A stretch of 46,253 bases of DNA. It comes from a virus. Taxonomy: Duplodnaviria > Heunggongvirae > Uroviricota > Caudoviricetes. The notes under the pieces are model-generated. The model was not told where the DNA came from. It worked only from the letters and a program-made list of their open reading frames with translations, and ran no database searches. Below are positions 42,394 through 44,832 of this stretch, piece after piece (the first letter of the stretch is position 1; every line of letters begins with the position of its first letter). Both the position numbers and the translations under genes were made by a program. The stretch lies in the IMG/VR virus record IMGVR_UViG_2721755496_000003, positions 1 to 46,253 of that record; one strand, written 5' to 3'.

Positions 42394-44832
42394 ATGAGCA
42401 CTGATAAAGAAGAATTTGCACTATATTGCGAAGCAAAAAATGACAAAGTCAGAAAACGCCTAGGAATTAAAGGTGGTTTTTACTGGACTACAGCAAAAAA
42501 ATTATCTGTTGCTATCTCCCGCTGCATTACTGCAATGGATGACAACGATTATGATGAAGACGACTTTAAAAAACCCGTCCGTGTCCATTTACCCGTTGTG
42601 AATGACCTTCCACCGGAAGGCGTGTTTGATACCGAATTCTGCAATCGATATGAAAAAGGCGGGGAAGATGGCATCACAATGATATTTAGCGCGCCCTCTT
42701 CCTCTTCGCAGCACAAACCAGCCAGCACTGACAATACCAACGTCAACGGCGAAGATATGACAGAGATTGAGGATGGTATGCTCCTGCCGATTTCTGGTCA
42801 GGAACTGCCCGTTCGCTGGCTTGCACAACACGGCAGCGAGAAACCGGTAACACACGTTTCACGGGAAGAACTTCGGGCATTGCATAGTGCACTGGATGAA
42901 GAACTCCCTACGGTTACAACCCGTGCCATCTCAAATAAAGCAGCTCAACTGGGGCCGCTGGAAATTCAGGATTTATACAAACTGGTTCGGGATACTGACA
43001 GTGTTTTTCCCGTCCCCGTAAATTCGGAACTAGGGATAATGACCGCTTTCATCGAAGCATACCTGGACACTGACTACACCGATCGAGGTCTGCTGACAAA
43101 AGAGTGGATGAAAGGAAATCGTGTTTCACGCATCACTCGCACGGCTTCCGGTGCTAATGCTGGAGGCGGGAACCTTACCGATCGCGGCGACGGTTTCATC
43201 CACGATCAGGCATCATTGGCGCGCGACATAGCCACTGGCGTACTGGCCCGTTCAATGGACGTGGACATTTATAACCTTCATCCGGTACACGCTAAACGCA
43301 TTGAGCAAATTATCGCTGAAAATAAACCGCCCTTTTCTGTTTTCCGCGACAAATTCATCGCCATGCCTGGTGGGCTGGATTATTCCCGCGCCATCGTGGT
43401 TGCGTCCGTGAAAGAAGCACCAATTGGTATCGAGGTCATCCCTGCGCACGTCACTGAATATCTGAACAAGGTACTTACTGAAACCGATCATGCCAACCCT
43501 GATCCGGAAATCGTAGATATTGCCTGCGGTCGCTCCTCTGCCCCGATGCCGCAGCGTGTAACAGAAGAAGGAAAACAGGATGATGAAGAAAAACTGCAAC
43601 CATCTGGCGCAATGGCAAATGAACAGGCAACGCCTGAAGCAGTGGAACCGGATACAACTGAACATCATCAGGACACTCAGTCGATGGATGCTCAGCCACA
43701 GATAAATTCTGTTGATGCGAAATATCAGAAACTGCGGTCAGAACTCCATGAAGGAAGGAAAAACATTCCACCCCAAAATCCTGTTGATGCCGACAAGTTA
43801 CTGGCTGCTTCTCGTGGAGAATTTGTTGAAGGTATTAGCGACCCGAATGATCCGAAATGGGTGAAGGGGATTGAAACCCGCGATTCTGTGAACCAGCAAG
43901 AAACGGAACAGAACGACCAAAATGCAGAACAAAACGGCCCAAATGCGCGACAAAACGAGCCAGAAACGAAACTGCTTGAACCAGTAGCGCAACAGGAACC
44001 GGAAAAAGTCTGCACCGCCTGCGGTCAGCGCGGTGGCGGCAACTGCCCTGATTGTGGCGCGGTGATGGGCGACGCAACATATCAGGAAACATTCGATGAA
44101 GAAAATCAGGCTGAATCTCAGAAAAAAGATCCGGAGGAAATGAAAGGCACTGACCATCCTCATAAGGAGGACACTGGTGGTGATCAGTATCACGCCAGCG
44201 ATAATAAAACTGGCGAGGCGGCAGCTCTCTCAATTAAGGTGAACGGTCATCACGAAATCACATCCACCAGCAGGACGTGTGACCATCTAATGATCGACCT
44301 TGAAACCATGGGAAAAAATCCTGATGCCGCGATTATCTCAATAGGTGCAATATTTTTCGATCCGCAAACCGGAGATATGGGACCGGAATTTAGTAAGACT
44401 ATCGATCTGGAAACTGCTGGCGGAGTCATTGATCGGGACACCATTAAATGGTGGCTGAAGCAATCACGCGAAGCGCAATCTGCCATTATGACCGATGAAA
44501 TCCCGTTAGATGATGCACTGTTACAATTGCGGGAATTTATCGACGAAAACTCCGATGAATTTTTTGTTCAGGTCTGGGGAAATGGAGCCAACTTCGACAA
44601 CACGATTTTGCGCCGTTCATACGAACGGCAGGAGATCCCCTGCCCGTGGCGCTACCACAACGATCGCGATGTACACACAATTGTTGAGCTGGGGAAAGCC
44701 ATAGACTTCGATGCCAGAACGGCTATTCCATTCGAAGGTGAGCGCCATAATGCACTTGATGACGCCCGTTACCAGGCAAAATACGTTTCAGCTATCTGGC
44801 AAAAACTGATCCCGAGTCAGGCTGATTTTTAA
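42394..44832 (+). CDS. RecE-like (exodeoxyribonuclease VIII family N-terminal region) protein with zinc ribbon and C-terminal DEDDh 3'-5' exonuclease domain
   Basis: 812 aa; N-terminal and central blocks ([58 protein letters not shown]...) resemble RecE as recalled; CTACGQ-N9-CPDCG; C-terminal [22 protein letters not shown] motifs. Confidence 0.6.

What the first reader, a model, noticed from the sequence alone, without database searches (positions are those of the whole stretch)
42394..44832. RecE-like scaffold fused to a DEDDh 3'-5' exonuclease, without a RecT/Bet annealase partner
The N-terminal and central regions resemble Rac RecE as I recall it, but the C-terminal about 200 aa carry the three DnaQ-like motifs ([22 protein letters not shown], i.e. 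DEDDh) preceded by a CxxC-N9-CxxC zinc ribbon, rather than the PD-(D/E)XK 5'-3' nuclease of canonical RecE. The next gene is xis, so no RecT or Bet-like annealase is encoded between it and int. This implies a different polarity and role from the classical RecET recombination pair.
Basis: partly seen in the sequence, partly recalled or inferred. Interest (0 to 1): 0.5.

Follow-up and report, generated by a model that had tools for sequence, protein, structure and literature searches.

The report
RecE scaffold carrying a DexA-type exonuclease
This E. coli prophage gene keeps the large front part of the recombination enzyme RecE but has a T4 DexA-like 3'-5' exonuclease in place of RecE's own nuclease and has no annealing partner; the arrangement is real, under selection and very common in E. 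coli, but nobody has tested what it does.

Summary
ORF 42394-44832 (+, 812 aa) matches K-12 RecE residues 50-587 over its residues 58-610 (72% identity). Residues 628-805 are a DEDDh exonuclease (Pfam Rv2179c-like, E 1.4e-66; D635, E637, D735, H785, D790). Its closest solved relative is T4 DexA, a 3'-5' DNA exonuclease.

A sister prophage has the same scaffold (85% identity) in the order dicB-ydfD-recE-recT-lar-DUF1187-xis-int. DNA homology to it stops at codon 611/612. So one swap replaced RecE's PD-(D/E)XK nuclease, recT and two small genes with the DEDDh domain. No annealase was found in the window or in 80 related viral contigs.

Two corrections. The zinc ribbon is CxxC-N7-CxxC, not N9. 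It belongs to the shared RecE scaffold and is not specific to the DEDDh variant.

The architecture is not rare. The DEDDh segment occurs in 4067 of 5426 complete E. coli genomes and is annotated "exonuclease". All segments show dN/dS of 0-0.39.

Function is inferred. Most likely it is a phage early-operon 3'-5' DNA-end exonuclease that works without a dedicated annealase. The main rival is a defence role like the published EcD/HREX enzyme, but the residues reported for 5hmC recognition are not conserved here. I rate it a new variant of a known kind, of moderate interest.

The parts
42394..44832 (+). CDS of the 812-aa chimeric exonuclease (RecE-type scaffold plus DEDDh domain)
   Evidence: ORF list. 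A 100% identical protein, P0152, is annotated '3'-5' exoribonuclease [Escherichia coli]'. dN/dS is 0-0.39 in every segment.
42562..42960 (+). Residues 57-189: Pfam Exonuc_VIII (RecE N-terminal) region
   Evidence: Pfam PF06630, E 1e-24
42991..43563 (+). Residues 200-390: conserved, confidently predicted helical domain of the scaffold, shared with RecE; fold and function unknown
43564..44001 (+). Residues 391-536: acidic, low-confidence linker (net charge -18) that holds the start of the middle module shared with both RecE-type and YdfE-type proteins (from residue 465)
   Evidence: Composition. AF2 pLDDT is mostly below 50. Tritos and the YdfE type share residues 465-812.
44002..44073 (+). Residues 537-560: zinc ribbon C540-x2-C543-x7-C551-x2-C554, part of the scaffold and also present in RecE
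   Evidence: Sequence. Conserved in Rac-SA53 RecE and Tritos. Weak Pfam DZR hit.
44227..44228 (+). Recombination junction (codon 611/612): DNA homology to the recE-recT prophage ends here
   Evidence: blastn of window 41628-44227 against L100 1-2611 gives 89% identity, then nothing further. Protein homology to RecE ends at residue 610-611.
44275..44808 (+). Residues 628-805: DEDDh 3'-5' exonuclease domain (Rv2179c-like, DexA-type) with catalytic D635, E637, D735, H785, D790
   Evidence: Pfam PF16473, E 1.4e-66. AF2 pLDDT mostly 75-95. Foldseek top hits are T4 DexA 8KEN/8KEL, E 1e-11. phmmer against the PDB hits only DexA. Catalytic residues are invariant in 81 of 81 sequences.
44897..45145 (+). 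xis (excisionase), the gene immediately downstream
   Evidence: PHROG 629 excisionase, E 3e-34
45123..46253 (+). int (tyrosine integrase); end of the prophage next to ompW
   Evidence: Pfam Phage_integrase, with OmpW in the identical contig L101
41701..42279 (+). Upstream genes of the same early-left operon: DicF sRNA (41701-41752), dicB (41933-42121), ydfD-like DUF1482 (42118-42279)
   Evidence: Rfam DicF, 70.5 bits. Pfam DicB and DUF1482.

Best explanation
The gene encodes a modular phage exonuclease made by a cassette swap.

Shown:
- The first 611 residues are the RecE scaffold. It comprises the Exonuc_VIII region, a folded helical domain at about residues 200-390, acidic linkers and a zinc ribbon.
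- The last 200 residues are a T4 DexA-type DEDDh exonuclease that replaces RecE's PD-(D/E)XK 5'-3' nuclease.
- The same swap removed recT, a lar/ralR-type gene and a DUF1187 gene.
- The gene is the last open reading frame of the early-left (dicF-dicB-ydfD) operon, just before xis-int.
- It is intact and under purifying selection.

Inferred:
- It is a metal-dependent exonuclease that removes nucleotides from DNA 3' ends.
- It is expressed from the early-left promoter during induction or lytic growth, not in the repressed lysogen.
- The scaffold brings the nuclease to the same place or partner as in RecE, probably double-strand ends or a host factor.
- There it trims 3' tails or makes 5' overhangs. 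This would feed host-dependent or annealase-independent end repair and recombination of phage DNA, instead of the RecE/RecT single-strand-annealing route.
For: Architecture and junction:
- Domain and homology results.
- A sister prophage has the same scaffold at 85% identity in the order dicB-ydfD-recE(Exonuc_VIII + DUF3799)-recT-lar-DUF1187-xis-int.

DEDDh domain:
- The catalytic residues are intact, and DexA is the best hit by sequence and by fold.
- DexA is a 3'-5' DNA exonuclease used in host-DNA scavenging and in recombination-dependent intron homing (PMC12153337).

Recombination context:
- The gene occupies the slot held by recE-recT in Rac and by exo-bet-gam in lambda.
- The stand-alone homologue lies in an annealase-SSB-exonuclease-Abc2 cassette in mEp235-type phages, in 70 of 72 loci.

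Recurrent pairing of the scaffold with either nuclease:
- Among 66 diverse scaffold proteins, 16 carry the PDDEXK domain and 13 carry DEDDh.

Selection and intactness:
- 73 of 80 related viral contigs carry an intact ORF.
- dN/dS is 0-0.39.

Expression:
- No promoter-like signal above the shuffled background lies upstream. This fits read-through from the operon.

Precedent for working without an annealase:
- The 3'-5' exonuclease XthA alone creates cohesive ends that let E. coli join linear DNA in vivo (PMC6379578).
Against: - No activity, polarity, substrate (DNA or RNA) or expression data exist for this protein.
- The recombination context is guilt by association, and the mEp235-type loci are closely related to one another.
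- 3'-5' resection does not give the 3' tails that RecA or phage annealases normally use.
- The published E. coli homologue EcD was reported as an anti-phage enzyme, not a recombination enzyme.
- The Pfam family is named after an exoribonuclease.
Confidence: 0.42

Rival explanations
1. Superinfection defence. The DEDDh domain degrades the DNA of incoming phages from 3' ends, as reported for the E. coli DexA homologue EcD ('HREX'), which digests 5hmC-containing T4 DNA and protects cells.
For: PMC12153337 reports that EcD protects against T4. I identified EcD through its primers as a 189-aa protein that is 36.7% identical to the window's domain. The gene is prophage-borne and very common in E. 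coli.
Against: - The residues that paper assigns to 5hmC recognition are not conserved. DexA W152 aligns with H755 here (Y in 79 of 81 relatives), and D169 aligns with K768.
- The residue whose loss defines the EcD dimer state (DexA D90) is D707 here.
- The gene lies inside the repressor-controlled early-left operon with no promoter signal of its own.
- PADLOC gives only a generic DEDDh hit.
- EcD protection was shown from a plasmid.
Confidence: 0.2
2. Exoribonuclease. Like M. tuberculosis Rv2179c, the founding member of the Pfam family, the domain trims RNA 3' ends, for example phage or host transcripts of the dicF-dicB operon or the xis-int message.
For: The Pfam family name and model. Structural neighbours after DexA are RNase T, oligoribonuclease and REXO2. 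NCBI names the identical protein '3'-5' exoribonuclease'.
Against: The nearest characterised relative by both sequence and fold is the DNA exonuclease DexA. The scaffold is shared with a DNA exonuclease (RecE). The stand-alone homologue sits in a DNA recombination cassette.
Confidence: 0.12
3. Nucleotide scavenging or host-DNA breakdown during lytic growth, the other role described for T4 DexA.
For: DexA supplies mononucleotides from host DNA (PMC12153337). The gene is expressed with early lytic genes (operon position).
Against: From my own knowledge, lambdoid phages are not known to degrade the host chromosome. The window has no endonuclease partner that would create ends. This role gives no reason to keep a 600-aa RecE scaffold under selection.
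Confidence: 0.08
4. Counter-defence. The exonuclease destroys a host immune nucleic acid such as retron msDNA or signalling oligonucleotides.
For: DEDDh exonucleases occur next to CBASS and CRISPR systems (Cap18 fold hit at rank 22; PADLOC DEDDh hit). Early-operon position.
Against: No specific similarity to any known anti-defence protein. No co-variation with host defence systems was examined.
Confidence: 0.06
5. A decaying remnant of recE with no function.
For: Some copies are split or truncated, in 7 of 80 loci and in L010. K-12 ydfE is a pseudogene.
Against: 73 of 80 copies are intact. dN/dS is 0-0.39 in all segments. The catalytic residues are invariant. The gene is present in the sequenced phage record Tritos.
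Confidence: 0.03

Closest known systems
RecE (exonuclease VIII) of the Rac prophage, partner of RecT
   Same: Residues 58-610 are 72% identical to K-12 RecE residues 50-587, including the folded helical domain and the zinc ribbon. The operon position between the dicB/kil-type genes and xis-int is the same.
   Different: The C-terminal PD-(D/E)XK 5'-3' nuclease (review: residues 564-866, PMC11611040) is replaced by a DEDDh domain. There is no recT. The score is below the NCBIfam equivalog cut-off.
T4 DexA (exonuclease A; PDB 8KEL/8KEN)
   Same: Same DEDDh fold and the same five catalytic residues. It is the best PDB hit by sequence (E 2.7e-7) and by fold (E 1e-11).
   Different: Only about 25% identity. 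DexA is a stand-alone 227-aa protein of a virulent phage with extra loops. The window's domain is fused to a 610-aa scaffold. The W152 and D169 equivalents differ.
EcD, the 'HREX' anti-phage exonuclease of E. coli (PMC12153337)
   Same: Same Rv2179c/DexA family, catalytic residues conserved, found on mobile elements of E. coli.
   Different: 36.7% identity. EcD is a stand-alone protein of about 189 aa in a different element, next to a Dam-like methylase and a primase-like gene. EcD keeps W and E at the positions reported for 5hmC recognition and has A at the D90 position. The window has H755, K768 and D707.
Stand-alone DEDDh exonuclease of mEp235-type lambdoid phages
   Same: 57% identical to residues 630-805. 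It is also an early-left operon gene close to xis-int.
   Different: 182 aa with no scaffold. It is flanked by a Rad52-type annealase, SSB and an Abc2-like anti-RecBCD gene in 70 of 72 loci. None of these is present in the window.
YdfE of the K-12 Qin prophage and the 823-aa exonuclease of phage Tritos
   Same: Same operon (dicF-dicB-ydfD-exonuclease-xis-int). The Tritos protein has the same middle module and DEDDh domain (residues 465-812, 90% identity).
   Different: Their first ~470 residues are a different N-terminal type, only about 32% identical over about 230 aa. K-12 ydfE is a truncated pseudogene of that type.
M. tuberculosis Rv2179c, founding member of Pfam PF16473
   Same: Same Pfam family.
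   Different: Pfam describes it as an exoribonuclease. It did not appear among the top PDB hits by sequence or fold here.

Membership tests
RecE / exodeoxyribonuclease VIII | N-terminal Exonuc_VIII region and RecE central scaffold | tested here: met
   Pfam PF06630, E 1e-24. 72% identity to K-12 RecE residues 50-587.
RecE / exodeoxyribonuclease VIII | C-terminal PD-(D/E)XK nuclease domain (Pfam DUF3799; residues 564-866 of K-12 RecE) | tested here: not met
   No Pfam DUF3799 hit, although the sister RecE has one. tblastn with two RecE C-terminal domains against the window gives E > 0.7. Homology ends at residue 611.
RecE / exodeoxyribonuclease VIII | Full-length match above the curated NCBIfam equivalog cut-off | tested here: not met
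   1038 bits against a cut-off of 1269. Only profile positions 1-599 of 877 are matched.
RecE / exodeoxyribonuclease VIII | 5'-3' dsDNA exonuclease activity | not testable with these tools
   Needs biochemistry.
Two-component phage recombinase (exonuclease plus annealase, e.g. RecET or lambda Red) | An annealase gene (RecT/Redbeta, Erf, Rad52-like) adjacent or in the same phage | tested here: not met
   None in the window. None in 80 of 80 related viral contigs.
DEDDh exonucleases, Rv2179c-like/DexA family (PF16473) | Match above the Pfam gathering score | tested here: met
   224 bits against a cut-off of 27, residues 631-802.
DEDDh exonucleases, Rv2179c-like/DexA family (PF16473) | The five catalytic residues D, E, D, H, D | tested here: met
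   D635, E637, D735, H785 and D790 align with DexA D7, E9, D119, H186 and D191. They are invariant in 81 of 81 sequences.
DEDDh exonucleases, Rv2179c-like/DexA family (PF16473) | RNase H-like DEDD fold | tested here: met
   AF2 pLDDT is mostly 75-95 for residues 628-805. Foldseek top hits are DexA, RNase T and Orn/REXO2.
DEDDh exonucleases, Rv2179c-like/DexA family (PF16473) | 3'-5' exonuclease activity and substrate (DNA or RNA) | not testable with these tools
   Needs biochemistry.
HREX (EcD-type 5hmC-recognising defence exonuclease, PMC12153337) | Tryptophan equivalent to DexA W152 | tested here: not met
   H755 in the window and Y in 79 of 81 close relatives. EcD and mEp235 keep W.
HREX (EcD-type 5hmC-recognising defence exonuclease, PMC12153337) | Acidic residue equivalent to DexA D169 | tested here: inconclusive
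   The alignment gives K768 (E in EcD), but this loop aligns poorly between DexA and the enterobacterial proteins.
HREX (EcD-type 5hmC-recognising defence exonuclease, PMC12153337) | Loss of the tetramer-forming Asp (DexA D90; A78 in EcD) | tested here: not met
   D707 aligns with D90 and is invariant in 81 of 81 sequences.
HREX (EcD-type 5hmC-recognising defence exonuclease, PMC12153337) | Selective degradation of modified phage DNA and protection from infection | not testable with these tools
   Needs nuclease and plaque assays.

The most novel reading that the evidence does not exclude
The RecE N-terminal region, whose function has been unknown for decades, is a general nuclease-delivery platform. 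It is built around a folded helical domain with no detectable structural relative, and phages load it with nucleases of opposite polarity. The DEDDh-loaded version is present in about three quarters of E. coli genomes. It would define a second, annealase-independent way of processing DNA ends by 3'-5' resection, for phage recombination or for attacking foreign linear DNA.
Probability: 0.15. Interest if true: 0.7.

Novelty: new variant of a known kind. Interest (0 to 1): 0.4.

Why it matters
RecE/RecT is a workhorse of recombineering, yet the 600-residue N-terminal part of RecE has no known function. Its only recorded effect is that it enhances linear-linear recombination (PMC11611040).

This locus and its recE-recT sister form a natural experiment. 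The same scaffold (85% identity), in the same operon, carries either a 5'-3' PD-(D/E)XK nuclease with RecT or a 3'-5' DEDDh nuclease without any annealase. Comparing the two could show what the scaffold does.

It could also show whether E. coli prophages carry an unrecognised DNA-end pathway. And it could tell whether the many 'exonuclease' genes of E. coli prophages, including those in O157 and Stx-phage records, act in recombination or in phage defence.

The practical limit is that the protein family is already annotated in databases. What is new is the reading of it, not its existence.

Tried and rejected
- Equating the gene with an intact K-12 ydfE. Rejected for the N-terminal half: ydfE is 99% identical to the Tritos-type N-terminus, which is a different type from the window's. 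Only the operon position and the C-terminal 350 residues correspond.
- Finding EcD with its reverse primer. The single hit was unrelated. The forward primer worked.
- The listing of cluster members did not show accession HAK9828821.1 among the listed members.
- Literature searches for Rv2179c plus prophage, for PF16473, and for RecE/RecT plus DEDDh found no paper on this chimera. The 'full-length RecE' search matched 'receptor' and was wasted.
- The 'miniRecE E121-T222' of PMC12825301 could not be mapped. K-12 RecE has P and L at positions 121 and 222. I did not use it.
- PADLOC gave only a generic DEDDh hit.
- The promoter scan gave fewer sites than the shuffles, so there is no evidence for a promoter of the gene's own.
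- E. coli proteins of 183 aa that look like stand-alone versions are, where context was visible, the last piece of a split gene or sit at contig ends.
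Full report
**What is in the sequence**

The window is a lambdoid prophage of E. coli. An identical 812-aa protein lies on an E. coli contig, with ompW just beyond the integrase.

The finding's ORF (42394-44832, +, 812 aa) is real. It is the last gene of the early-left operon before xis and int. Between the cI-like repressor gene and that ORF, the operon reads as follows:

| Feature | Coordinates |
|---|---|
| cI-like repressor | 39921-40340 |
| ydfA-like DUF1391 | 40606-40758 |
| DicF sRNA | 41701-41752 |
| dicB | 41933-42121 |
| ydfD-like DUF1482 | 42118-42279 |
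| exonuclease | 42394-44832 |
| xis | 44897-45145 |
| int | 45123-46253 |

**The two halves**

The N-terminal part is RecE-like:
- Pfam finds Exonuc_VIII at residues 57-189.
- NCBIfam's RecE model matches residues 1-611, but only profile positions 1-599 of 877, and the score is below the equivalog cut-off.
- BLASTP puts residues 58-610 on K-12 RecE residues 50-587 at 72% identity.
- BLASTP puts residues 58-611 on Rac-SA53 RecE at 64%, and by eye about 90% from residue 229 on.

The C-terminal part is a DEDDh exonuclease:
- Pfam finds Rv2179c-like at residues 631-802 (E 1.4e-66).
- Nothing in the window resembles RecE's PD-(D/E)XK domain.
D635, E637, D735, H785 and D790 align with the catalytic residues of T4 DexA and are invariant in 81 related sequences.
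- T4 DexA is the only PDB hit by sequence and the top hit by fold (Foldseek E 1e-11). RNase T, oligoribonuclease/REXO2 and Cap18 follow.
- The fold prediction for residues 628-805 is confident, with pLDDT mostly 75-95.

The zinc ribbon needs two corrections. It is CxxC-N7-CxxC, at C540, C543, C551 and C554. It is also conserved in genuine RecE, so it belongs to the scaffold.

**How the chimera arose**

A protein that is 85% identical over the first 620 residues carries the RecE nuclease domain (Pfam DUF3799) instead of the DEDDh domain. Its locus reads dicB-ydfD-recE-recT-lar-DUF1187-xis-int.

DNA identity between that locus and the window is 89%. It runs from upstream of dicB to window position 44227, which is codon 611/612, and then stops. 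So one exchange replaced the RecE nuclease domain, recT and two small genes with a DEDDh domain.

The family is modular:
- A second N-terminal type, that of K-12 Qin ydfE and phage Tritos, is joined to the same middle module (residues 465-611) and the same DEDDh domain.
- Among 66 diverse proteins that contain the scaffold core, 16 carry the PDDEXK domain and 13 the DEDDh domain.

**No annealase**

- tblastn with two RecT types, lambda Bet, lambda Exo and Gam, the mEp235 Rad52-type annealase, SSB and Abc2 finds nothing in the window.
- Pfam and PHROGs scans of the other larger candidate ORFs in 25-46 kb, and of the alternative-frame ORFs inside the interval, show no annealase.
- In 80 related IMG/VR loci, none had any of these genes within the flanks. 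72 had dicB upstream.

**Is it functional and is it rare?**

It looks functional:
- 73 of 80 related loci have an intact ORF of more than 700 aa.
- Pairwise dN/dS is 0-0.39 in every segment, scaffold included.

It is not rare:
- DNA of the DEDDh segment occurs in 4067 of 5426 complete E. coli genomes, with up to 7 copies per genome.
- The RecE-type scaffold plus DEDDh form occurs at 80% coverage or more in 1098 genomes.
- NCBI annotates these genes as 'exonuclease' or '3'-5' exoribonuclease'.

The architecture is thus in the databases. I found no paper that discusses it, though the search covers open-access text only.

**The scaffold**

The rest of the region between residue 391 and the DEDDh domain is acidic, and apart from two short stretches it is predicted with low confidence.

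The scaffold core has only 169 cluster representatives among 1.84 billion proteins. The family is narrow.

The 2023 review PMC11611040 states that the RecE N-terminal domain has no known function. [quoted passage not shown]

**What it most likely does**

By homology it is a 3'-5' exonuclease. DNA is the most likely substrate, for three reasons:
- DexA is the nearest characterised relative.
- The scaffold comes from a DNA exonuclease.
- A stand-alone homologue (57% identity) lies between a Rad52-type annealase plus SSB and an Abc2-like anti-RecBCD gene in mEp235-type lambdoid phages, in 70 of 72 loci.

DexA itself works in host-DNA scavenging and in recombination-dependent intron homing (PMC12153337).

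The gene's place inside the repressor-controlled early operon, with no promoter signal of its own, points to expression during induction or lytic growth.

I therefore favour a role in processing the 3' ends of DNA during phage recombination or repair, using host functions in place of a dedicated annealase. That 3'-5' resection alone can support joining of linear DNA in E. coli is shown by XthA-dependent in vivo cloning (PMC6379578). This step is inference, and I give it about 0.4.

**The main rival**

PMC12153337 reports that an E. coli DexA homologue, EcD, digests 5hmC-modified T4 DNA and protects cells.

I recovered EcD from its primer sequence. It is a 189-aa protein on a different mobile element and is 36.7% identical to the window's domain. 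Its A78 fits the paper's numbering.

| Position in DexA | Reported role | EcD | Window |
|---|---|---|---|
| W152 | 5hmC recognition | W | H755 |
| D169 | 5hmC recognition | E | K768 (alignment uncertain) |
| D90 | tetramer formation | A | D707 |

Sources. By the paper's own criteria this protein is therefore not an EcD-type enzyme. A defence role of another kind is not excluded.

The other rivals have little specific support. They are RNA trimming, nucleotide scavenging, counter-defence and a decaying remnant. The last is contradicted by the selection data.

**Verdict**

This is a new variant of a known kind. It is a natural nuclease swap on the RecE scaffold that is widespread, annotated and functionally uncharacterised. 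Interest is moderate. It would rise if the scaffold proves to be a general delivery module, or if the DEDDh form defines an annealase-independent end-processing pathway.

Noticed in passing
window 41701-41752 (+), with 41933-42121 and 42118-42279: A DicF antisense sRNA (Rfam 70.5 bits) followed by dicB and a ydfD-like gene. The early-left operon is therefore of the Qin 'dicBF' type, and the exonuclease is its last gene.
   Followed up: partly
window 40874-41671 (-), probable true start near 41390: A gene on the opposite strand inside the early-left operon, between the ydfA-like gene and DicF. It matches PHROG 1244 (unknown function). It has a coiled-coil-like front part and CxxC pairs near the C-terminus. 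No PADLOC hit.
   Followed up: partly
window 40384-40420: A perfect 16-bp-stem palindrome with T-runs on both sides, just after the cI-like gene. It looks like a bidirectional terminator at the start of the early-left operon.
   Followed up: no
window about 27700-31200: A low-GC island (39-44%) holding a plus-strand ORF, 28520-29545 (PHROG 2309, unknown). Just upstream of it lies a 651-aa ORF, 25512-27467 (PHROG 143, unknown; weak tail-fibre-like matches). These may be cargo genes. No PADLOC hits.
   Followed up: partly
L206 5205-5336 (IMG/VR contig carrying EcD): The zinc-ribbon stretch of the scaffold (window residues 518-567) has a 48% identical match at the C-terminal end of a Dam-like methylase ORF, next to the EcD gene. 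The small zinc-ribbon module may move between phage DNA enzymes.
   Followed up: no
L010 737-3127; L011-L013: Many E. coli database entries named '3'-5' exoribonuclease' of about 177-183 aa are not stand-alone genes. They are the last fragment of a split fusion gene (456 + 157 + 183 aa ORFs) or lie at contig ends.
   Followed up: partly
scaffold-bearing representatives P0392-P0539: Of 75 scaffold-containing representatives of at least 450 aa, 44 match neither the RecE nuclease nor the DEDDh domain, and 2 of 66 scanned contain a RecT domain. Other C-terminal partners or gene fusions may exist.
   Followed up: no
window 32072-32431 (-) and 32444-33493 (-): A RusA-like Holliday-junction resolvase and a DUF968/HNH-like protein are the only other recombination-related genes recognised in the window.
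   Followed up: no
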